DNA of 64,000 bases from an uncultured Methanosarcinales archaeon (GCA_964453185.1 CAYVNN010000002.1:340444-404443), one strand, 5' to 3'; positions 6,973 to 57,500 are shown, counted from the first letter of the stretch. The notes: generated by a model not told the origin, from the sequence alone. A program made the numbers and translations.

Positions 6973-7079
6973 AATAAACGGACCAGAATTGATCCTCACC
7001 AGCTTTTTACAAAAAACTTGGGAAAAAGAAATTAAGTACCGCTTCACTTTGTTCAGCAGTACGAATAAACGGACCAGAA
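6973..7079. repeat. 16-bp direct repeat of the tRNA-Arg 3' end (6973-6988 / 7064-7079) flanking a 75-bp hairpin insert
   Basis: aataaacggaccagaa occurs twice. The spacer carries two small hairpins. Confidence 0.8.
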
Positions 7080-7184
7080 GGGATTCGAACCCCCGACCTA
7101 CAGCTTAGAAGGCTGCCGCGCTATTTGCACTACGGCAAATCCGGTAAATCCAGATTTACAGTATCCAGGCTGCGCTACTGGTCC
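7070..7184 (-). tRNA. tRNA-Arg(TCT) with ~40-nt non-canonical D-loop intron (~7122-7161)
   Basis: Acceptor GGACCAG/CTGGTCC, anticodon arm GCAGC-CT-TCT-AA-GCTGT, T-loop TTCGAAT. An extra 40 nt interrupts the D arm. Confidence 0.92.
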
Positions 7185-14173: not shown

Positions 14174-15334
14174 CTACGCAAGAACTTCTCCCAAAACTCT
14201 AACAACTTCATCAATATCTTCTTTAGAAATCACCAAGGGCGGCAATAACCTTATGCCTGTCAATCCTGCAATATTTGCCATAATCCCTCGTTCCATTAAT
14301 GCCTTCAAATAAGGTGTAGGTCTTTCTTTTAAATCAACAGCTATCATCAATCCAATTCCTCTAATTTCCTTAATCCTTGGACTATCAATCTTCCTTAACT
14401 CAGCAAGCAAATATTCTCCATTTTTTCTACTTTGCTCAACTAAATTCTTATCTTTAATAAAATCAATAACAGCTGATCCAGCTGCGCATGCGATTGGATT
14501 TCCACCAAAAGTAGTACCATGCATCATTCTTGGAATTTGGATTTTATCATTTATAGCAACAGCTCCCATTGCTATTCCTCCAGCTATTGACTTTGCCATT
14601 GTTATGATATCAGGAACTATTCCAGCATGTTCGCATGCAAAGAATTTACCTGTCCTTCCAAATCCAGTTTGAACTTCATCAATAACTAATATGATTCCTT
14701 TCTCATCACATAATTTTCTAACTTGTTTAAAATATTCCCAATCTCCTAAGATAATACCACCTTCGCCTTGGACTATTTCTAATATTATTGCTGCAGTGTT
14801 TTCACTAACATTATTCCTTAAATCTTCAATATCATTATAATTAACAAACTTGAATCCTTCTAATAATGGCATGAATGGTTTTCTATATTTTGGCTTATGT
14901 GTAGCACTCAATGCCCCCATTGTTCTTCCATGGAAACCTTTCTTTGCAGATATTATTTCTGTCCTTCCTGTAGCTACTCTTGCAAACTTGATTGCTGCTT
15001 CATTTGCTTCTGCCCCAGAATTACAAAGAAAGAATCTATTCAAACTTTCAGGTGTAACACTATTTAATTTCTCTAAGAATATTGCTCTAGCATCATTATA
15101 GAATATTTCAATACTAGTAATTATCTTTTGACTTTGTTCATTGATAGCTTTAATTACATATTCATTACAATGTCCAACATTAACACTACCAATTCCACTA
15201 ACACAATCAATATACTTCTTTCCATCAGAGTCATATATGTAGGCACCATGCCCCTTTACTATTGCAACCTCTCTTTTTGGATAAACTCCTGATGTGTATC
15301 TTCCTTCTATTTTGATTATATCTTTTGTATTCAT
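14174..15334 (-). CDS. lysJ: [LysW]-aminoadipate semialdehyde transaminase (class III PLP aminotransferase)
   Basis: NSGAEANEAAIK, GFHGRT, DEVQTGFGRTG and TMAKS motifs; lysW operon context. Start chosen after the GGTGA SD. Confidence 0.92.
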   Translation of the reverse strand: MNTKDIIKIEGRYTSGVYPKREVAIVKGHGAYIYDSDGKKYIDCVSGIGSVNVGHCNEYVIKAINEQSQKIITSIEIFYNDARAIFLEKLNSVTPESLNRFFLCNSGAEANEAAIKFARVATGRTEIISAKKGFHGRTMGALSATHKPKYRKPFMPLLEGFKFVNYNDIEDLRNNVSENTAAIILEIVQGEGGIILGDWEYFKQVRKLCDEKGIILVIDEVQTGFGRTGKFFACEHAGIVPDIITMAKSIAGGIAMGAVAINDKIQIPRMMHGTTFGGNPIACAAGSAVIDFIKDKNLVEQSRKNGEYLLAELRKIDSPRIKEIRGIGLMIAVDLKERPTPYLKALMERGIMANIAGLTGIRLLPPLVISKEDIDEVVRVLGEVLA

Positions 15335-15368
15335 TTTTTCACCCATTGCATTAGATCCAGCACCTTTG

Positions 15369-15501
15369 GCATTTGTACTGGCGCCAAAGGCACATATTTT
15401 ACGTAGTAAAATATCTCGTGTGCCGTGCTCCAGTACAGATGCATTAATCGTTTTATGTTTTGGCTTAAATGCATTTTTTGTATTGAGTCAGAGCCACTGT
15501 G
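15369..15501. repeat. Family-1 hairpin element (15369-15442) followed by an orphan right arm (15483-15501)
   Basis: Arms gcatttgtactgg / ccagtacagatgc. ttgagtcagagcc is shared with the element at 19398-19507. Confidence 0.8.
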
Positions 15502-15507
15502 ACATTA

Positions 15508-16299
15508 TTATTCAATTACAGTTCCATTTCCATTTAACGCATTTGTTACAGGATCTTCAACATTAGCAGATGCAAATATAACTCTTTTCACACCACCATC
15601 TAATGCTTCTTGTGCTCCCATTACTTTCTTCTTCATTGTGCCTTTTGCATATTCCATGCATTTATCTAACTCATTTCTATCAATATTCTTAATTAAACTG
15701 TTTGGATCATTAACATCTTTTAATAATCCTGGAACATTTGAAAATAATATTAATGTCTCTGCTTCTAATGATTGAGCAATTAATGATGCCATCCTATCTC
15801 CATCAATATTTATTGGTTCATTTTCATAACTAATTGCAGGTGGAGTTACTACTGGCATAAATCCATTATTCATTAGTAATTTTAATAATTCTACATTAAC
15901 TTTCTCAGGTTTACCTGTATATTGGTCTCTTAGCAACATCTTTTTTCCGTTTTCCATTATTTTTAATGTGGCTTTTCTCTTTCCTTCAACCAGTCTTCCA
16001 TCCATTCCTGACAATCCAATAGCATTAACACCAAAGTTTTGCATTTTTTCAACAATCATCTTATTCATTTTACCACAATATGCCATTTGGAACATTTCAA
16101 TGGTTTCTCTATCTGTAGCTCTACTTGTATATCCACTTACAGATTTAACCCATCTTGGTGGTTTACTTAATCCTTCAGATAACTTTCTTAACTCTTCTTT
16201 CCCACCATGTACTAAGATAAAATTCTCATGTCTAACTAAATCTGCTAGTAGATTATCATAATCTATTCCTTCTGCTCCTCCAACTTTAACTATTATCAT
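15508..16299 (-). CDS. lysZ: [LysW]-aminoadipate/glutamate kinase
   Basis: MIIVKVGG, LVHGG, GLSGMDG, NIDGDR and GTMKKK motifs; GGTGAT SD before ATG 16299. Confidence 0.93.
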   Translation of the reverse strand: MIIVKVGGAEGIDYDNLLADLVRHENFILVHGGKEELRKLSEGLSKPPRWVKSVSGYTSRATDRETIEMFQMAYCGKMNKMIVEKMQNFGVNAIGLSGMDGRLVEGKRKATLKIMENGKKMLLRDQYTGKPEKVNVELLKLLMNNGFMPVVTPPAISYENEPINIDGDRMASLIAQSLEAETLILFSNVPGLLKDVNDPNSLIKNIDRNELDKCMEYAKGTMKKKVMGAQEALDGGVKRVIFASANVEDPVTNALNGNGTVIE

Positions 16300-16315
16300 T
16301 CTATCACCATTTCCA

Positions 16316-16427
16316 GCATTTGTACTAGCGCCTTGACTCCACATTGAATAACACATTAATTCGCACTAAAAGTCGCGTTGCGTTATTCTTATTTCACTTA
16401 GTGCCAGAGTCGCTCTAGTACAAGTGC
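16316..16427. repeat. Family-1 hairpin element, flanked by a 13-bp direct repeat (16298-16310 / 16434-16446)
   Basis: gcatttgtactag-c-gc-ctt-gactc ... ca-gagtc-gc-t-ctagtacaagtgc; attctatcaccat occurs on both sides. Confidence 0.85.
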
Positions 16428-16451
16428 GTACTTATTCTATCACCATCAATT

Positions 16452-16562
16452 GCATTAATACCATCGCCTTGGCTCACTATATTATTAAAACATAATATAG
16501 CGTAAGGATACGGATCGTACTTATACTATATTATAATATCAGAGCCGCTGTGGTATTAATGC
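16452..16562. repeat. Family-1 hairpin element
   Basis: gcattaatacca-tc-gc-ctt-ggctc ... ca-gagcc-gc-tg-tggtattaatgc. Confidence 0.85.
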
Positions 16563-16564
16563 TT

Positions 16565-17200
16565 TTACTTTATTTCTTTTAATTCTCCATTTCTCATTAT
16601 TTTCTTAGTTAAATCTAAAAACTTTTCTGAACATACTATTCCATTTCCATATCTTATCTGAAAAAAGTCTTGTTCTTCTGAATATTTACAATAAACAAAT
16701 GTTTTTTCTTTGTTTGATATAATTATGTTCAATGCTCTGATATATCTTGTATGATCTTCTATATATTTGATTGCTTCTCTAACTCCTTCTTCAAATCCAT
16801 TCCTATCTATAAAACCTAAAAATATATTAAATATCTTATGTGCTCCTGTTTCACCTTCTGCTTTCATTCTAACTCCTTTCAATCTTCCATTGAATGCAAA
16901 AGCATACTCACCTGAAACAAAAGGCATATTATTTTCTTCATTGATTGTATGCAATCGGAGTGCATCTCTAACATGAGCAATCATCATCTTTGTTTTCATG
17001 TTCATCTTTTCTATGTCACATTTCCACATTGCTTTAACATCTCGATGTAGTTGCCATTCATTATTCTCATCTAAATAACAAAATCCCCATCCATCTCCTT
17101 GATCATGTTTAGCATTCTTTGCTATGTTTGCAAATACATCTAAGTAAGGCTTTATATTAATCTCTTCTTCTTCTTTCTTTACAAATAATAATCTACACAT
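16565..17200 (-). CDS. Class II glutamine amidotransferase / Ntn-hydrolase (EgtC/YafJ-like)
   Basis: Likely start MCRLL (catalytic Cys1) after a GGTG SD; DGWG, AHVR, NNMPF, FAFNG and CSE motifs. Confidence 0.88.
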   Translation of the reverse strand: MCRLLFVKKEEEEINIKPYLDVFANIAKNAKHDQGDGWGFCYLDENNEWQLHRDVKAMWKCDIEKMNMKTKMMIAHVRDALRLHTINEENNMPFVSGEYAFAFNGRLKGVRMKAEGETGAHKIFNIFLGFIDRNGFEEGVREAIKYIEDHTRYIRALNIIISNKEKTFVYCKYSEEQDFFQIRYGNGIVCSEKFLDLTKKIMRNGELKEIK

Positions 17201-17217
17201 TTTTACACCATTGATAA

Positions 17218-17305
17218 TAATACCACTGCCTTGGCTCACTATATTATTAAAACATATAGTGCAAAGCATGACAAATGCTTTGTTCACCTTAAGGCAAAGG
17301 CAGTA
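17218..17305. repeat. Chimeric family-1 hairpin element
   Basis: The left 39 bp match 16456-16494 at 37/39. The right half is the reverse complement of about 28590-28635. Confidence 0.8.
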
Positions 17306-17312
17306 AAACACT

Positions 17313-18356
17313 TTAAACAGGATGTAATCCAATAAAATCTAATCCAACATTCTCTTCAAAACCACACATTAGGTTCATACATTGCAATGCTTGTCCTGCT
17401 GCACCTTTCATTAAATTATCAATTGCACTTATCACAATTAATCTATTACTATTCTTATCTTTAACAAAACCTATATCACAAAAGTTTGTTCCCATCACAA
17501 TCTTTGGTTCAGGTAATCTATAGATTCCTTCTCTTTCATTAACTATTCTAATAAAAGGACTATTTCCATATTCTTCTCTATAAACTTTCCACACATCTTT
17601 AACACTTGTATTTGGATCTTTCAAAAAAACATGGCATGTTGTTGAAACTCCTCTAACCATTTCAATAGATGTTGCACTAAAATGAATATTGTCAACATTA
17701 AGTTCTTGTAACATTTCAGCTATATGTCTATGACTATGTGGTTTGTAACATCTAACTACTCCCGATCTTTCTGGATGATGTGAGCCAGGATTAACTTTAA
17801 CTCCACCTTGTGATGACCCTGCTTTTGCTTCAACTACTGTTTTCTCTACTTCAATTAATCCATGTTTATACAAAGGATATAAAGCTAATATTGTTGCAGT
17901 CGCATTACATCCAGCTGAAGCTACATATTTTGCATTCTTGATTTCCTCTCTATGTAACTCAGGAATTCCATAAATAAATTTATTAATTAATTCAGGTCTT
18001 GGATGGTCATAGTTATACCACCTTTCATATGCTTCTTTACTACTTAATCTAAAATCTCCACCTTTATCAATTATCATGTCTGCTTTTGTCATTAAAAAGT
18101 CCATTTTCTCTGAACTAACTCCGTGAGGTAAACCTAAAAATAATACATCGACTTTTTCTAAGTCATTGATTGAACTAAACTTTAGCATTGTTTGTTTTCT
18201 TAAGTTGGGATGTAATTTATGTACAAACTTTCCTGTATTTGATTCAGATGTTGCTTGAACAATTTCAACATTCGGATGTCTAAGTAAAAGTCTTAATAAT
18301 TCTCCTCCCGTATATCCGCTTGCTCCAACAATTGAAACTCTTATTTTATCTTTCAT
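17313..18356 (-). CDS. lysY: [LysW]-aminoadipyl/glutamyl-phosphate reductase (ArgC family)
   Basis: [25 protein letters not shown] and [12 protein letters not shown]. Confidence 0.94.
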
Positions 18357-19206
18357 CTTTTGCCACCTTTAAAACATAATCAACAACTTTTTCTGGAATA
18401 TTTACACCTGTTGTGTCTATACTATTTCTAAATTCCATTGTATAATTAACTTCATTAACAACTAATCCTTCTTCTGTTTCAAATAAATCAATTGCTACAA
18501 CACCACCACCTACTGCTTTTGCAGCTGCAACTGAAATTTCTGCCATTTCAGGTGTGACTGGACAATTTGTTGCTTTTCCTCCTCGTGAAGTATTTGTTAT
18601 CCAATGTTCAGATGTTCTATATATTGCTGCTATGCATTCATCACCAATAACAAAACTTCTAATATCTCTCTTCTTGGGTTTATCAATATGTTCTTGTATG
18701 TAAAAAATTGAATGATGATAACTACCTAATACTTGTTTATGTTCTAATATGCTTTCAGCAGTTTCTCTATCTTTAACTTTTGAAATTAATCTTCCCCATG
18801 AACCTACTGCGGGCTTTAAAACACAAGGATAACCTAATTTTTCCATTGCTTCTAAAGCAGATTCTGGTGTAAATGCAATAAAACAATTTGGAGTTGGCAC
18901 ATTATTTTTAATCAGTGCTTGTGTTGTTAAAAATTTGCTTCCACATACATCTGCAACTTTGTATGAATTTACAGTTTTTACACCTTTATCATTTAATATT
19001 TTTAATGCATGCAATGCTCTTGAATGATTAACACATCTTTCAATTACAACATCAACTTCATAATTAGGATTGTGTAAATCAAACATTATTTCTCTGTCAT
19101 CCATGTCAACTATCTCAACATTTTCTCTTTTCCTAAATTCATCTAGTAATAATTTTTCTTCTTTTCTAATTACTGATCTTAAAAAGCCAACTCTAATTTT
19201 TGTCAT
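18346..19206 (-). CDS. lysX: Alpha-aminoadipate/glutamate--LysW ligase (ATP-grasp)
   Basis: [23 protein letters not shown] and NEVNYTMEF; adjacent to lysW. Confidence 0.95.
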
Positions 19207-19371
19207 TTATTCACCCCAATCTTCTTCTTCTTGTGGTGCAGCTTCTAATGTAACTGGGTCTGTACTTCTAACTTCTAGTTCAACCCCACATTCTCCACAT
19301 TCAACTAACTCACCTTTTTCTACATTTTCATTCAATGGAACATCAGCTCCACATTCTGGACATTCTACCAT
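19207..19371 (-). CDS. lysW: Amino-group carrier protein LysW (54 aa, not in the ORF track)
   Basis: Manual translation MVECPECGADVPLNENVEKGELVECGECGVELEVRSTDPVTLEAAPQEEEDWGE, with two CxxC and the EDWGE terminus; GGAGG SD. Confidence 0.97.
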   Translation of the reverse strand: MVECPECGADVPLNENVEKGELVECGECGVELEVRSTDPVTLEAAPQEEEDWGE

Positions 19372-19397
19372 TTTATTTACCTCCAATTATACTACAA

Positions 19398-19536
19398 GCA
19401 ATAGTACCACTGCCTTGGCTCACTATCACATTTTATCATTGATAGCGTAAAGATACGGAACGTACAACGAATTGCTCATTGAGTCAGAGCCGCCGTGGTA
19501 CTTTTGTTCATATACCACTGCCTTGGCTCACTATCA
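19398..19536. repeat. Family-1 hairpin element (19398-19507) plus a duplicated left arm (19513-19536)
   Basis: gtaccac-t-gc-ctt-ggctc ... ca-gagcc-gc-c-gtggtac; taccactgccttggctcactatca is repeated exactly. Confidence 0.85.
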
Positions 19537-19656
19537 TTAATTATACTAGTATTCACTCATTAGATATAAACATTCTGTTATTATATTAACAAAACAATAT
19601 ATTTTTGTGATTTATTTATCTCATAAACCCAATCATACCACTCTTTAGTAGTTAAT

Positions 19657-27840: not shown

Positions 27841-28572
27841 TTACTTTTTCCCTTTTTTCCACAACAATTCAAAGTATTGTTTATAACCTTCTGCAACAGT
27901 TTTATCTTTAATTAGAATTCCATATGGATTTTCTGTGAATATTGCTATTCCTACATTATCTCCACAAATAATTGTTTCTTGTAATTGTTCATATTCAGGT
28001 TTAAGAAATTTTATTTTTGTTAAAACTTTTTTATTAAGCCATTTGCCAAAATCTCTGATTGTTTCATCAAACAATTGTCTTGACTTAATCTTTTTTGCAA
28101 TTCTTCTTGCATGTAAATTCTTCCACCATGTTTCTCCCATTATATCATGTGTAACTCTTGTTCCACCACCAAATGTATTATATTCTTTTCCACCTGTGTT
28201 TAAAATAATATTATACATCTCATTAATTCCTCTTTTTCCTCTAAATATAGTTCCACTTGTTTCTTGTTTTACAAATTTCTGCTTTTGTTTTAATTCAGGC
28301 AAAATTTGTTCAAATCTCTTTTTTTTATTTTCAATAAAATCATAGAAATTTTCAGGGTTAGTTGCTTGATATATCTTTTTTCTTCCTTCTAGTATATAAC
28401 TTATCAATCCTTTATCTATTAATGTGTTCAATGCTCTATGAACAACAGAATTATGTAAATTAGATTTCTCTAAAATAGCACCTGCACTACTATTACCTAA
28501 CTCTAACAATGCAATATATACCTTAATCTCTGCATTTGTTAATCCAAGATCCTCTAATATTGTTGTATCCAT
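27841..28572 (-). CDS. TrmB-family transcriptional regulator
   Basis: LEDLGLTNAEIKVYIALL wHTH; C-terminal YFELLW. Confidence 0.88.
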   Translation of the reverse strand: MDTTILEDLGLTNAEIKVYIALLELGNSSAGAILEKSNLHNSVVHRALNTLIDKGLISYILEGRKKIYQATNPENFYDFIENKKKRFEQILPELKQKQKFVKQETSGTIFRGKRGINEMYNIILNTGGKEYNTFGGGTRVTHDIMGETWWKNLHARRIAKKIKSRQLFDETIRDFGKWLNKKVLTKIKFLKPEYEQLQETIICGDNVGIAIFTENPYGILIKDKTVAEGYKQYFELLWKKGKK

Positions 28573-28584
28573 GTTTACTCAAAC

Positions 28585-28704
28585 AGATATACTGCCTTTG
28601 CCTTAAGATGAACGAAACGTTTGTCATGCTTGCACAATAAGGAACAAAAATCCATCATAATCATATCAAGATTTTTGTGAAGTGAATGGCCAGGCAGTAT
28701 ATCT
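28585..28704. repeat. Hairpin element related to family 1
   Basis: Perfect 13-bp arms agatatactgcct / aggcagtatatct. The left part is the reverse complement of about 17259-17305. Confidence 0.8.
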
Positions 28705-28815
28705 TATATATTAGATTTCATTATATATATTTAAATCTATCCATTATAGTCTCAAAAAAGAGGATAAAAGTTAATATAGATTTCTTGTTACCACCATGTT
28801 GTTGGGGTTAAATCT

Positions 28816-40766: not shown

Positions 40767-40782
40767 TTTATTTCTAGTATGT

Positions 40783-40924
40783 CATTAAAACCAGCGCCTT
40801 GAGTCGGCATCAAATAATTTATAATGTCGCACTAAAAGTCGCAGACGTTATTCATATCTGACCTAGCACCAGACTCGCCCTGGTTTTAATGCATTTTTAT
40901 TCAGAGCCGCCATAGTACAAATGC
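40783..40924. repeat. Family-1 hairpin element (40783-40891) plus an orphan right arm (40901-40924)
   Basis: cattaaaaccag-c-gc-ctt-gagtc ... ca-gactc-gc-c-ctggttttaatg; shares the internal tcgcactaaaagtcgc with 16316-16427. Confidence 0.85.
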
Positions 40925-54532: not shown

Positions 54533-57500
54533 CTACTGTACTATCACTTCTCTGTGTTTGATTCTCTTTGTTGTGTCATCACTGATTACTATTCTAACAC
54601 TGTAAATTCCTGCTTCTGCCCATTCTGGAATGTCTAATTCCACAATAACTGGAACCTCTTCTCCGTTATCCATGTCATATTGTCCAGATACACCATATAT
54701 CCCTAATTCTTGGATTGTTGCTGAAACCTGTACTCCGTCATGATCGTCTAAGCCAATGTTTGTTGCACTCACATAAATTTCTAATGTTTCCCCTGCATCA
54801 ATGTAATCTGAGTCTCCTCTAAATGAGATTGTATCAACAAACAATTGATCTCTTCCATTGTTTTCAATTTCTTCTTCTACTGTGATTGTGACAGATGCTG
54901 TATCTTCATCACCATTAATATCTACTACAGTAACACAAGCTGTGTATGTTCCTTCTTCTTTGTATACTTGAAGAGGATTTGATTCATAACTTTCTTCTTC
55001 AATTACACCATTACAATCAAAGTCCCACTTAAAAAATAATGGATCATTACCAGTACTTTCACTAGCATCCAATCTTACCCATAAAGCAGGTTCTCCTCTT
55101 GATGGTGTTGCTGTTAAAACAGCTGTTACGCCAATATCTTCTTGAACATTAATATCAACACTATCAGATGCTTCATTTCCTTGATCATCTGTTACTGTTA
55201 ATTCAACTGGATAAACACCAATGTTTTCAAATGTGTATGTGAAACAATCTTCTTCTGAACTTGTTTCTCCATTCCCTAAATCCCATTCATAATTATATGG
55301 TTCTGCTCCTCCTGTAACTTCACTACAAAGTTCAACTTCAAGAGGTGCAACTCCATTAATAGGATCTGCACTTATTTCAACATTTAATGAATCAGCTGAT
55401 TCAATATCTACATAAGCATAATCTGAATCTTCTTCTCCATAAGGATCTGTTACAGTTAATGTAACTAAATATTGTTTAACCTCATCATAAGTATGTGTTG
55501 GGTTTTCTTCTTCTGATGTTTCACCATCACCAAAATCCCATAAATATGTTAAGTCATCTCCATCTGGATCATAACTTCCATCACTACTTAATTGAATTTC
55601 TTCTCCAACAGTTCCACTATAATTACCATTTGCTTCTGCAACTGGTGCATTATTTTCAATTGGGTCTTCACCTTCAACAATTACTGCATAAGTATATGCT
55701 GTATTTGTTGCTAATTTTTCGTCATAAACTGTTAAACTAACTGTGTAGTTTCCTTCAGCATTATAACTATGTGTAGGATTAGCTTCAGTTTCACCTGCTT
55801 CAACATTGCTACCATCACCAAAGTCCCAAATATACCAAACTAAGTTATCTCCATCTGGATCATAACTTCCTGTTCCATCAAATGTGATTTCTTCATCAAC
55901 TTCTCCTTCATATGGTCCATTTGGATCTGCAACAGGATCATTGTTTGCCGGTTCTGTGATATCAGCATAGGTTGAATCTGTGTCTGTGTTTCCATCATTA
56001 TCCATTACAGTTAATGTAACTGTATAATTTCCTTCAGCTGTATAAGTATATACTGGATTTTCTTCTTCTGAAGATCCTAATCCATCACCAAAGTCCCAAA
56101 CATATGTTTCAATTGTTCCGTCAGGATCATAACTTTCTGATCCATCAAATTGAACTTCAACATCAATTTCTCCTTCATATGGTCCACTTGCATTAGCAAC
56201 TGGACTTTCTCCTAGACAGTCTGAAATATATGCATAAGTATACTCTGTGGTACTGTCTCCTTCATCATCTGTTACTGTTAATGTAACTAGATATTCCTGA
56301 TATCCATCTCCTTCATCATCTGTATAAACATGTGAAAAAGCTGAATCTGTTGATGTTGTTTCATCTCCTAAGTCCCACGCAAATGTAATACTTCCACCAT
56401 CAGGATCATTACTTCCTTCAGCTGTAAATTCAATTACATCATTAAAGCATCCTGTGTATGGTCCATTTGTAAAAACTTCTGGAGCTTCACTAATATCTGT
56501 TTCTTCTCCATAAACATAGAACAATAATTCTTGTGTTTCATCAAGATTAATATCATATTCACAACTGTTTGCAATTCCATTCACATAAATATAATGTGTT
56601 CCACCGCTATTAGGTGTCCATGGATAACTAATTGTTTGATAATCAGTTGTTGTTGGGTTTGCACCAACAGTTTCAATTTCATCTTGAACTAAATAATATT
56701 CTCCACTATCTAAAACTCTGTAAACTTCTAATGTGATATCTGTTGGTAATGCTGCAAGATTTTCATCAATATCTACACTGTTTGAAATCTTTTCAAAACT
56801 TAATGTGTATTCTGTGTCAACATAATAATGTCCTGTTTCATCGTTTAATGTTAAATTGTCCATTAATGTATAACAATATTCTGTTAAGTTTGCAGGAATT
56901 ACACTAAATGATTGCGATGCATATTGTGGATCACTCGTTTCACACTGAAGATCTGTTACATATGTTTGAACTTCTGCAGTATAATTTCCTTCTGTGTCTG
57001 GTGTCCACTCAAAATGTACACTTTCACTTCCATCTGCTAAAATATTTAATGTTTCATTATCTGTATGAACTGTTGTTCCATCTCCATCAACAATTGTTAA
57101 TGAAACTCTGATTTCAGTTGAATAATATTCTACATATTGTTCACTTAAATCAAAATCAAAACCTAATTTATATACTTCATCTAATTCTTCTGTAAATGCA
57201 CTATAAACACTTGCATCTAAATTAGCAATAACATCTACTTCAATTGGCATGTATGGTTCTACACTATTTGTTACACTGAATGTATCAATTGTTGCTCTAC
57301 ATACATCAGCTTTTTGTATTTCATCAACCACTAACCATTCATATCCTTCATCTTCATAATTTCTTTCCCATCCATCTCCTGGAATTCCATATGTAACAAT
57401 GTGTGGAAGATATCCTTCTGCAAAATAATATGAAATATAAGGTGTTCCTTCTTCTGTTTCAGCTCCTGCTGGGAATGTTAATGTCATTTCTCCGTCAGGA

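What the first reader, a model, noticed from the sequence alone, without database searches (positions are those of the whole stretch)
15369..19536. Covarying structured repeat family punctuating the lysW operon and recurring at 28.6 and 40.8 kb
Seen in sequence: related hairpins lie upstream of lysW (19398-19507, with an extra left arm at 19513-19536), between lysY and the Ntn gene (17218-17305), between the Ntn gene and lysZ (16452-16562 and 16316-16427), between lysZ and lysJ (15369-15442, plus a right arm at 15483-15501), and at 28585-28704 and 40783-40924. The four most complete copies share one + strand design: a long outer stem (usually GCATT...AATGC ends), a mismatch, GC/GC, a CTT bulge, a 5-bp helix, then a multi-hairpin interior ending in CA. 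The 5-bp helix covaries (GGCTC/GAGCC, GACTC/GAGTC, GAGTC/GACTC), and the outer stems differ in sequence while staying paired. Two interior subtypes exist (cgtaa.gatacgga.cgtac and cgcactaaaagtcgc..cgttattc). Four outer-stem non-Watson-Crick pairs read as G-T on the + strand, which is antisense to the lys mRNA. Inference: this is a structure-selected element I cannot match to a known family. It could be a REP/REPIN- or attC-like ssDNA hairpin moved by an enzyme encoded elsewhere, or a structured RNA controlling processing of the operon. On the mRNA strand, the helix followed by TGR on one side and AAG on the other loosely resembles a bulge-helix-bulge, although the helix is 5 bp rather than 4.
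Basis: partly seen in the sequence, partly recalled or inferred. Interest (0 to 1): 0.9.

Follow-up and report, generated by a model that had tools for sequence, protein, structure and literature searches.

The report
Hairpin repeat family in marine archaeon
The hairpins between the lysine-synthesis genes belong to a family of about 80 small, probably mobile, hairpin-forming DNA repeats scattered between the genes of an uncultured marine archaeon; nearly all point the same way along each contig and, where it can be measured, relative to DNA replication, much like bacterial REPIN/MITE elements, but no known mobilising enzyme is present.

Summary
The window's copies belong to a genome-wide family. 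My covariance model finds 82 full-length copies (about 110-180 nt) in the 1.62-Mb genome, and 87 of 89 nhmmer loci lie outside ORFs.

Each copy has a 13-bp outer stem that covaries, a position that is never paired, a GC/GC clamp, a CTT bulge and a covarying 5-bp helix. The interior is poorly conserved and swappable.

Orientation ignores gene direction: 22 copies are sense and 33 antisense. It follows the contig and the replication-linked GC3 skew instead: 37 of 42 copies in strongly skewed regions.

Six of 77 copies carry flanking direct repeats of 11-23 nt. Copies are nested in one another, and composite copies have multiplied.

No Rfam family, virus, plasmid, metagenome contig or other species carries the family. 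One related genus has two diverged copies. I found no Y1/RAYT transposase, reverse transcriptase or IS110 enzyme.

Best reading: a REPIN/MITE-like, non-autonomous hairpin element that works as single-stranded DNA, with an unknown mobiliser. The bulge-helix-bulge RNA-processing idea and the attC idea are not supported. This is a new variant of a known kind, of moderate interest.

The parts
19398..19509 (+). Full copy upstream of lysW (GGCTC/GAGCC helix type, interior subtype 1)
   Evidence: R1 match 19392-19513, 106 bits; folds at -34.9 kcal/mol
19513..19536 (+). Solo left arm (outer-stem half plus left motif), with no right partner
   Evidence: Left motif at 19520-19529; sequence
17215..17264 (+). 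Left half of a main-family copy between lysY and the Ntn-type amidotransferase gene
   Evidence: nhmmer partial hit C2:357658-357707, model positions 4-55; left motif at 17228
17257..17305 (-). Fragment of the second hairpin family (family B) fused to the half copy
   Evidence: Family-B left motif found on the minus strand at C2:357731
16452..16562 (+). Full copy just after the stop of the Ntn-type gene (GGCTC type, interior subtype 1)
   Evidence: R1 match 16446-16568, 115 bits; -40 kcal/mol, z -7.0
16316..16429 (+). Full copy just upstream of the lysZ start (GACTC/GAGTC type, interior subtype 2)
   Evidence: R1 match 16310-16433, 96 bits; -36.4 kcal/mol
16299..16311 (.). Left copy of a 13-nt direct repeat flanking the 16316-16429 copy. 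It holds the lysZ ribosome-binding site and the first two bases (AT) of its ATG start codon.
   Evidence: Direct-repeat scan; sequence; control
16434..16446 (.). Right copy of the same 13-nt direct repeat (a target-duplication-like signature)
15369..15442 (+). Diverged short copy between lysZ and lysJ. It has the same outer stem and the same clamp/bulge/helix design, with a 48-nt interior.
   Evidence: R1 match 15363-15448, 30 bits, E 6e-5
15483..15513 (+). Solo right-arm fragment (a right-motif variant plus an outer-stem half)
   Evidence: Sequence; it does not match the exact right motif
40783..40892 (+). Full copy (GAGTC/GACTC type, interior subtype 2)
   Evidence: R1 match 40776-40898, 90 bits
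40903..40924 (+). Right arm of another (outer) copy lying just after the full copy. It is part of a nested or adjacent arrangement.
   Evidence: Right motif at C2:381345; sequences
28585..28704 (+). Member of a separate family of about 8 hairpin repeats (family B). It is not a main-family copy.
   Evidence: No R1 match; family-B census; no Rfam match

Best explanation
The hairpins are copies of a non-autonomous, MITE/REPIN-like mobile element of this archaeon.

The working parts are the two arms: a 13-15-nt outer-stem half plus the left motif GCCTTGRSTC or the right motif CAGASYCGC. In a single strand the arms pair into an irregular hairpin with these features:
- one position that is always unpaired;
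- a GC/GC clamp;
- a CTT bulge;
- a 5-bp helix;
- an unpaired stretch ending in CA.

The 60-nt interior is cargo that can be swapped.

Inferred: a protein that has not been identified recognises this irregular hairpin in single-stranded DNA at the replication fork. Copies are therefore inserted, or survive, in one orientation relative to replication.

Shown:
- the family, its structure and its covariation;
- its intergenic position just after stop codons;
- its strand bias;
- nesting, composite subfamilies, and target-duplication-like repeats at 6 copies.

Inferred only: the single-stranded-DNA mechanism, the coupling to replication, and any secondary use by the host, for example as a 3'-end RNA hairpin.
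For: Copy number and position:
- R1 finds 82 full-length copies at 57-123 bits in a 1.62-Mb genome.
- 87 of 89 nhmmer loci lie outside ORFs of 80 aa or more, although about 90% of the genome is ORF.
- Copies sit a median 15 nt after the upstream stop codon.
- Junction types are 51 co-directional, 22 convergent and 8 divergent, against 923/281/277 genome-wide. This matches the pattern reported for REPs (PMC3733652 abstract).

Lineage restriction:
- The exact motif pair occurs 54 times in this genome and 0 times in 40 related genomes.
- With R1, only 2 of 27 other genomes of the family give a hit. One genus has 2 diverged copies.

Signs of mobility:
- 6 of 77 copies have flanking direct repeats of 11-23 nt, against 1 of 909 control pairings.
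- One pair of copies is 99% identical over 115 nt on different contigs, with sharp boundaries.
- Elements are nested inside the arms of other elements.
- Two composite forms carry a second small element in the interior. One composite has at least 5 copies, so the interior is dispensable for copying.
- The nearest lys operon found elsewhere has lysY next to lysZ, with no elements.

Action at the DNA level, on one strand:
- 80 of 89 loci share the majority orientation of their contig.
- In regions with strong replication-type GC3 skew, 37 of 42 copies have the same strand on the C-rich side, p=4e-7.
- Gene direction adds nothing beyond this.
- G.T outnumbers A.C 24 to 7 on one strand.
- The position beside the clamp is never a Watson-Crick pair, 0 of 77.

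Covariation is shown.
Against: - No mobilising enzyme was found. There is no Y1/RAYT, no reverse transcriptase and no IS110-type enzyme.
- Among multi-copy ORFs I saw only a TnpB pair whose ends are unrelated to the repeats, plus Bro-N proteins.
- DDE transposase families were not searched one by one. The genome is 97% complete, and plasmids or viruses may be missing from it.
- Only one pair of copies is more than 91% identical, so recent activity is low.
- The arms and motifs stay at 80-99% identity while interiors fall to 40-60%. That looks like conservation in place, which a purely selfish element does not predict.
- Flanking repeats are absent at 71 of 77 copies, and where present their length varies. 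This is unlike a fixed-stagger transposase.
- Orientation stays uniform across about 470 kb (contig C3 and the second half of C2) where the GC3 skew is flat.
- The strand favoured by G.T pairs lies on the C-rich strand. If G-rich means leading strand, the folded strand is then the leading-strand template. That is the opposite of the IS200/IS605 rule (PMC6006769 passages).
Confidence: 0.55

Rival explanations
1. Ordinary TIR-type MITE. The arms are terminal inverted repeats, cut and pasted as double-stranded DNA by a DDE transposase. That transposase would be encoded on an unbinned plasmid or virus, or on a lost insertion sequence.
For: Inverted-repeat arms around a variable interior; intergenic position; nesting; lineage restriction.
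Against: - The outermost termini vary between subfamilies, while the sub-terminal irregular motif is the constant part.
- There is no fixed-length target duplication: 6 of 77 copies have repeats of 11-23 nt and the rest have none.
- Replication-strand bias, G.T asymmetry and a conserved unpaired position are not expected of a double-stranded mechanism.
- No long copy was found: all R1 hits are 180 nt or shorter. I saw no multi-copy transposase.
Confidence: 0.1
2. Primarily a cis-acting RNA structure. It would be a 3'-end hairpin that stabilises or terminates transcripts, or an operon processing site. It would have been spread by an old mobile element and is now kept by the host.
For: - Copies sit a median 15 nt after stop codons, enriched between convergent genes and depleted between divergent ones.
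- Both strands fold about equally well.
- The arms are conserved far more than the interiors.
- REPs are thought to act this way (PMC3733652 abstract).
Against: - Orientation is unrelated to gene direction: 22 sense against 33 antisense.
- A simple protective hairpin does not need an invariant bulge, clamp and unpaired position.
- The replication-strand bias needs a DNA-level cause.
- No run on record as RNA was listed as holding the region, so expression could not be tested.
Confidence: 0.12
3. Host DNA site with chromosome polarity. An oriented protein-binding or single-strand site would be used in replication, segregation or repair, in the way that skewed polar motifs are used in bacteria.
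For: - Orientation is uniform along whole contigs, including about 470 kb where the GC3 skew is flat.
- The motifs are conserved in place.
Against: - A 110-nt element with a swappable interior, nesting, half copies and flanking duplications behaves like mobile DNA.
- It is absent from 40 related genomes by exact motif, and nearly absent by R1. An essential host function should be shared.
- Spacing is irregular, with clusters and gaps of 50-90 kb.
Confidence: 0.08
4. Relaxed bulge-helix-bulge substrate. The RNA of the strand opposite to the one drawn here would be cut by the tRNA-splicing endonuclease, excising or circularising the interior.
For: - On that strand each side reads helix then bulge, which is the polarity I recall for such motifs. 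An alternative register gives a 4-bp helix with bulges of 3 and 4 nt (sequence; the polarity rule is recalled, not tested).
- This archaeon's few recognisable tRNA genes carry long and multiple introns, so endonuclease activity on unusual sites is plausible.
Against: - The helix is 5 bp in the consensus fold.
- G.T pairs favour the other strand, 24 to 7.
- Only 33 of 55 co-directional sites would be transcribed in the needed sense, which is the chance expectation given the strand bias.
- Excision would serve no evident purpose in intergenic RNA.
Confidence: 0.04
5. attC-like recombination sites of an integron-type system, with genes such as the Ntn-type amidotransferase gene as cassettes.
For: - Recognition of a folded single strand with unpaired bases resembles attC (recalled).
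- The Ntn-type gene inside the lys operon is bracketed by copies and is absent from the nearest lys operon found.
Against: - Copies are dispersed over all large contigs among housekeeping genes, not in arrays.
- No integron integrase passes its cut-off: the best tyrosine recombinase is XerA-like and the other is weak.
Confidence: 0.02

Closest known systems
REPINs (REP doublets forming hairpins) with their RAYT transposase, in bacteria
   Same: Both are about 100-nt extragenic palindromic repeats, tens to hundreds per genome. Both have conserved flanking arms and a variable spacer, are lineage-specific, and lie mostly after genes and between convergent genes (preprint 10.1101/2021.07.10.451892 passage; PMC3733652 abstract; here).
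   Different: - The arms here are not themselves short palindromes, and I saw no GTAG-type tag (inspection).
- No Y1/RAYT gene was found.
- The host is an archaeon; the preprint passage says REPINs had not been detected in archaea.
- Long flanking duplications occur at a few copies.
IS200/IS605 insertion sequences and their gene-less derivatives (PATE-type; the name is recalled)
   Same: Recognition of irregular hairpins in single-stranded DNA, and an orientation bias tied to the replication fork (PMC6006769 passages).
   Different: - The two resident TnpB elements have unrelated ends, and TnpA is absent.
- Here the two ends pair with each other into one long hairpin, rather than each end forming its own.
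- The strand favoured by G.T pairs lies on the C-rich strand.
- I saw no conserved flanking tetranucleotide.
Bacterial TIR-MITEs such as Correia elements of Neisseria (recalled)
   Same: Elements of 100-150 nt with inverted-repeat arms, intergenic, able to fold as RNA hairpins, and sometimes nested.
   Different: There is no fixed short target duplication, the termini vary, the sub-terminal bulge motif is conserved, and there is a replication-strand bias.
Integron attC sites (recalled)
   Same: Structure is conserved rather than sequence, unpaired bases mark the active strand, and orientation relative to replication matters.
   Different: There is no array and no integron integrase, and the copies are dispersed.
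Archaeal bulge-helix-bulge splice sites (recalled)
   Same: Two bulges on opposite strands flank a short helix, within a longer helix.
   Different: The helix is 5 bp rather than 4, strand evidence and gene orientation argue against an RNA role, and the copies are intergenic.

Membership tests
REPIN / REP-RAYT system | Extragenic palindromic element of about 100 nt with conserved arms and a variable spacer, in many copies | tested here: met
   82 copies; 87 of 89 loci outside ORFs; arms 80-99% against interior 40-60% identity
REPIN / REP-RAYT system | Each arm is a REP: a short palindrome of its own with a GTAG / GT[AG]G tag at its foot | tested here: not met
   By inspection of the 77 arm pairs listed, the arms carry only 4-nt self-complementary words and no consistent GTAG tag. 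No formal motif scan was run.
REPIN / REP-RAYT system | A cognate single-copy Y1 HUH transposase (RAYT; Pfam Y1_Tnp) | tested here: not met
   PF01797 gave 0 matches in the 97%-complete genome, while the control found it in 6 of 14 reference genomes. A very divergent or unbinned gene cannot be excluded.
IS200/IS605-derived miniature element | Ends related to the left and right ends of a resident IS200/IS605 element | tested here: not met
   The two TnpB elements share about 1.37 kb with each other, and their ends show no likeness to the repeats.
IS200/IS605-derived miniature element | The active (hairpin) strand lies on the lagging-strand template | tested here: inconclusive
   There is a strong strand bias, 37 of 42. 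However, the strand favoured by G.T pairs is the C-rich one, and origin and fork direction are not known for this draft genome.
TIR-MITE of a DDE transposase | Target-site duplication of fixed length at most copies | tested here: not met
   6 of 77 copies have direct repeats of 11, 13, 13, 17-18, 21-22 and 23 nt. The other 71 are no different from the control.
TIR-MITE of a DDE transposase | A full-length autonomous element with the same termini | tested here: not met
   All R1 matches are 180 nt or shorter. I saw no multi-copy transposase ORF. DDE Pfam families were not searched individually.
Integron attC | Sites arranged in an array of same-direction cassettes next to an integron integrase | tested here: not met
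   The copies are dispersed on 7 contigs. The integron-integrase models score 183 and 22 bits against a cut-off of 265.
Integron attC | Conserved R/L core sites (recalled consensus) | not tested
   No scan for the attC core consensus was run.
Bulge-helix-bulge splice site | Two 3-nt bulges separated by a 4-bp helix on the transcribed strand | tested here: not met
   The consensus fold gives 3 nt, 5 bp and 3-4 nt. An alternative register gives 3-4-4. Only 33 of 55 co-directional sites have the required sense.
Bulge-helix-bulge splice site | Cleavage by the splicing endonuclease | not testable with these tools
   This needs an enzyme assay or RNA end mapping. No RNA run was listed.
Any Rfam family | Match at or near a family's gathering score | tested here: not met
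   In the whole window at gathering score, the only match is one tRNA elsewhere. E-value mode on 15300-19600 and 28540-28740 gave only sub-threshold chance-level rows.

The most novel reading that the evidence does not exclude
This is the first archaeal counterpart of the bacterial REPIN-type 'persistent replicator'. It would be a hairpin element recognised as single-stranded DNA at the replication fork by an enzyme outside the known Y1/RAYT family, or copied by the replication machinery itself through template switching at microhomologies. The second route would explain the long, variable flanking duplications and the uniform orientation. Only the irregular arms would be under selection, and the interior would be free cargo.
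Probability: 0.3. Interest if true: 0.75.

Novelty: new variant of a known kind. Interest (0 to 1): 0.5.

Why it matters
- A 2022 preprint states that REPIN-like elements had not been detected in archaea (passage read). A clear archaeal family with a replication-strand bias, and with no Y1 transposase found in the genome, points to one of three things: an unknown single-strand DNA enzyme, a copying route that needs no transposase, or a mobiliser carried on an unbinned plasmid or virus.
- The family gives about 80 natural, oriented markers of chromosome polarity in an uncultured archaeon whose replication is unstudied.
- The covarying arms, the constant bulge and the always-unpaired position define a precise bait for finding the partner protein.
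- For annotation, the family explains the odd spacers inside the lys operon and many other intergenic GC-rich islands. These should not be read as operon-specific riboswitch-like regulators.

Tried and rejected
Searches elsewhere:
- Exact-pattern scan of one genome per species: 0 hits.
- JGI metagenome contigs: 2 hits, both GC-rich coding sequence that R1 rejects.
- Viral contigs: 111 hits to the loose pattern. 0 of the 80 loci fetched pass R1, and the other 31 were not examined.
- blastn against phage and plasmid records: no match.
- Literature searches for archaeal or DPANN hairpin repeats found no description of this family in the listings. Only listings, abstracts and the passages cited were read, and supplementary files were not opened.

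Enzyme hunt:
- Y1_Tnp, RVT_1 and DEDD_Tnp_IS110: none.
- Cas12f/TnpB domain: two intact copies plus one weak fragment, with ends unrelated to the repeats.
- Tyrosine recombinases: one XerA-like and one weak.
- All-against-all BLASTP of my crude ORF set gave 23 paralogous pairs. I recognised only the TnpB pair as transposon-related. Of these ORFs, three were run against Pfam, giving two Bro-N proteins and one with no family.
- I recognised no transposase-like protein among the translated ORFs inside three inverted-orientation element pairs (by eye) or beside the two copies of the related genus (by eye).

Other checks:
- K-turn and C/D-box readings of the conserved bulge were checked by eye against recalled consensus patterns and rejected. 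No tool test was run.
- A tRNA-like origin of the interior was considered and dropped, because I saw no T-arm-like motif in it.
- A joint 16560->19479 in one contig has only 21 letters on its shorter side and links two copies of the repeat. I treat it as a repeat-induced assembly join.
- No RNA holder was listed among the public runs, so expression, ends and strand of any RNA could not be examined.

Gene calls used for the orientation, distance and skew statistics are my own crude longest-ORF calls. Starts are over-extended at some sites.

Full report
THE WINDOW AND ITS GENES

- lysW, 19207-19386
- lysX, 18346-19206
- lysY, 17313-18356
- a class-II (Ntn-type) glutamine-amidotransferase-like gene, from 16565 to about 17202
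- lysZ, from 15508 to about 16300
- lysJ, 14174-15346

The window is contig C2:340444-404443 of a 1.62-Mb draft genome. The draft has 9 contigs, 30% G+C, and is 97% complete. Public runs that hold the region are marine or seawater metagenomes. The nearest LysY elsewhere (70% identity) belongs to a genome labelled only 'archaeon'. tRNA genes with several long introns fit an archaeon.

Each listed hairpin is present. A short left-motif scan alone is only weakly above chance in the window: 6 matches against 2.4 expected, and 2 of 100 shuffles reach 6. The genome settles the matter:
- 62 left/right motif pairs lie within 250 nt of each other.
- nhmmer gives 96 hits, which merge into 89 loci.
- I built covariance model R1 from 44 copies. 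It returns 94 matches. Of these, 82 are full-length forward matches at 57-123 bits. Ten are weak reverse-strand echoes of the same loci. Two are weak extra loci, one of which is the window's 15363-15448 copy.

The four full window copies fold at -35 to -42 kcal/mol on either strand, with z-scores of -3.3 to -7.0.

Covariation is strong:
- 13 of 20 consensus pairs show changes on both sides.
- 96.7% of cells are paired, against 80.2% after shuffling.
- 145 cells are changed on both sides, against 50 after shuffling.
- 0 of 500 shuffles reach the observed values, and slid registers give 27-53% pairing.

Because the 44 sequences were chosen by exact motif, I rechecked conservation on 70 nhmmer-defined copies. 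Arms and motifs are 80-99% identical and the interior is 40-60%.

Contigs of four public runs reproduce the region without a difference, and one contig spans three copies. These runs may not be independent of the assembly.

28585-28704, and the right part of 17218-17305, belong to a different family of about 8 copies.

ANATOMY

1. a 13-15-bp outer stem that comes in many compensated versions;
2. one position that is never a Watson-Crick pair, 0 of 77 (C.T in 47 copies, C.C in 23);
3. a GC/GC clamp;
4. an invariant CTT bulge;
5. a 5-bp helix in three main compensated versions;
6. an inner helix, and a 60-nt interior of at least three types;
7. on the way back, an unpaired stretch ending in CA.

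Stem variants include wobble intermediates. For example, one stem position is C-G in most copies, T.G in one, and T-A in others.

WHAT SETS THE ORIENTATION

Gene direction does not set it. Flanking genes are co-directional and in sense with L->R at 22 loci, antisense at 33, convergent at 25 and divergent at 9.

The contig does. The counts of plus and minus copies are C1 18/5, C2 26/0, C3 18/1, C4 2/8, C5 1/5, C6 0/2 and C7 0/3. That is 80 of 89 loci with their contig's majority.

The genome has an unusually strong replication-type skew. Third-codon-position GC skew differs between plus-strand and minus-strand genes by 0.3-0.4 on C1, C4, C6, C7 and the first half of C2. Where this component is at least 0.2 in size, 37 of 42 copies have L->R on the C-rich strand, p=4e-7.

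59% of ORFs (486 of 826) lie on the G-rich strand. The 22:33 split relative to genes is therefore what the strand bias alone predicts.

A second small repeat family shows the same tendency, 15 of 20.

One point is unexplained. C3 and the second half of C2, about 470 kb in all, have flat skew, yet their copies are still uniformly oriented.

WHICH STRAND FOLDS

In the stems, G.T/T.G pairs on L->R number 28, against 14 A.C/C.A, which would be wobbles on the other strand. Without the two outermost pairs the count is 24 against 7, p=0.003. Related copies share ancestry, so the p-value is generous.

C-to-T pressure on the G-rich strand would give the opposite excess. I therefore read this as selection for folding of L->R. 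That strand is antisense to the lys mRNA.

SIGNS OF MOBILITY

- Six of 77 copies are flanked by direct repeats of 11-23 nt, against 1 of 909 mismatched-flank controls at 11 nt or more. One of them is the window's 16316-16429 copy. Its 13-nt repeat (16299-16311 and 16434-16446) holds the ribosome-binding site and the first two bases of the start codon of lysZ. The insertion therefore duplicated the translation signals. In several cases the repeat overlaps the ends of the arms by 3-6 nt, which is a microhomology-like pattern.
- One pair of copies on different contigs is 99% identical over 115 nt with sharp borders. All other pairs are 91% identical or less.
- About twenty copies abut half arms of other copies. 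In at least six, a whole element sits between the left and right motifs of another whose interior is gone.
- Eight long copies carry a separate two-hairpin element of about 55 nt in the interior. That element also occurs about 28 times on its own (36 nhmmer loci, 8 of them nested). One composite form has at least five copies. The interior is thus cargo, and the arms are what is copied.
- The nearest lys operon elsewhere has lysY and lysZ about 30 nt apart, with no Ntn-type gene and no repeat. It is distant, however: its other proteins are about 47% identical.

POSITION

87 of 89 loci are outside ORFs. Copies lie a median 15 nt after the upstream stop codon. Junction types are 51 co-directional, 22 convergent and 8 divergent, against 923/281/277 genome-wide, chi-square p=0.04.

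DISTRIBUTION

- The exact motif pair occurs 54 times here and 0 times in 40 relatives, of which 24 are in the same family.
- With R1, 2 of 27 other family genomes give a hit.
- One genus has two copies of the same design with a CAA bulge. The other hit is doubtful.
- Nothing true turned up in species-representative genomes, JGI metagenomes, viral contigs, phage records or plasmid records.
- No Rfam family matches.

THE MISSING ENZYME

- No Y1_Tnp, RVT_1 or IS110 DEDD domain was found.
- There are two TnpB elements with unrelated ends.
- One XerA-like tyrosine recombinase is present, and one weak one.
- I saw no multi-copy transposase.
- I recognised nothing transposase-like by eye near the related genus's copies or inside inverted pairs.

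INTERPRETATION

The family behaves like a bacterial REPIN or MITE. It is small, extragenic, palindromic and lineage-specific, its arms are conserved around a variable spacer, and it sits after genes (PMC3733652 abstract; preprint 10.1101/2021.07.10.451892 passage).

Three features point to recognition of a folded single strand, as with IS200/IS605 and REP systems that work at the fork (PMC6006769 passages):
- the strand bias relative to replication;
- the wobble asymmetry;
- the constant unpaired features.

It fails the membership tests for REPIN: there is no REP sub-palindrome or tag, and no RAYT. It also fails those for IS200/IS605 derivatives, fixed-duplication MITEs, attC and bulge-helix-bulge sites.

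Three things do not fit a simple selfish-element story:
- the arms are conserved in place, while copies are old;
- orientation stays uniform in flat-skew regions;
- the favoured strand lies on the C-rich side.

A host use, such as a 3'-end RNA hairpin or a polar DNA site, may have been added. Template switching by the replication machinery could also explain the long and variable duplications with microhomology. These are inferences.

VERDICT

The operon-processing, bulge-helix-bulge and attC options are not supported. This is a new variant of a known kind. Interest is moderate, and would be higher if the partner enzyme proves new or if copying needs no transposase.

Noticed in passing
Whole genome; window 7077-7133 (minus strand): A 97%-complete genome in 9 contigs shows only 7 tRNA matches with the Rfam model and 9 canonical T-arms. 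ARAGORN finds none in the window. Most recognisable tRNA genes are 119-143 nt long with long or multiple introns. The window's hit covers only model positions 7-64. Either tRNA genes here are heavily disrupted (split, permuted or multi-intron), or they lie on unbinned DNA.
   Followed up: partly
Whole genome (contigs C1, C4, C6, C7 and the first 200 kb of C2, against C3 and the rest of C2): The replication-type GC skew at third codon positions is very strong (+-0.3-0.4). That seems high to me for an archaeon (recalled impression, not checked against published values). About 470 kb has no skew at all, and the change along C2 is gradual.
   Followed up: partly
Genome-wide; nested examples at C2:179516-179570 and C2:188912-188970, outside the window: A second repeat family of about 55 nt has two covarying hairpins and a TATA-like AT-rich 3' end. 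It has 36 loci, 8 of them nested inside main-family copies, and some carry further inserts. Nearly half of the intergenic regions of 50 nt or more (372 of 767) share similarity with another intergenic region.
   Followed up: partly
Window 28585-28704 and 17257-17305: A third hairpin family ('family B') has about 8 copies of about 125 nt. It has its own covarying outer stem and an internal loop carrying the same short GTGAA-type word on both strands. It has no Rfam match.
   Followed up: partly
Window 16565-17202 (minus strand): A class-II (Ntn-type) glutamine-amidotransferase-like gene sits between lysY and lysZ, bracketed by repeat copies. The nearest lys operon found elsewhere has lysY and lysZ adjacent and lacks this gene.
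   Followed up: partly
Window 17313-18356 (lysY): After one unclassified archaeal genome (70%), the next best LysY matches are bacterial: Melioribacteraceae at 66-67%, then KSB1, Cytophagia and Chloroflexota at 52-63%. This hints at transfer of the lys genes between domains.
   Followed up: no
G000 C2:267417-268783 and C1:355084-356448, outside the window: Two TnpB-only (IS1341-type) elements are about 84% identical over 1.37 kb. Both are on the plus strand, and no TnpA is present in the genome.
   Followed up: partly
G000 C2:168932, C2:282150, C2:315148 and C5:9794; also C1:256494 and C5:96718: There is a four-member family of Bro-N-domain proteins (58-76% identical) and a related pair. One member starts 30 nt from a repeat copy.
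   Followed up: no
Window 54900-56500: Tandem repeats of 270-290 nt lie inside a long ORF region, probably repeated domains of a large surface protein.
   Followed up: no
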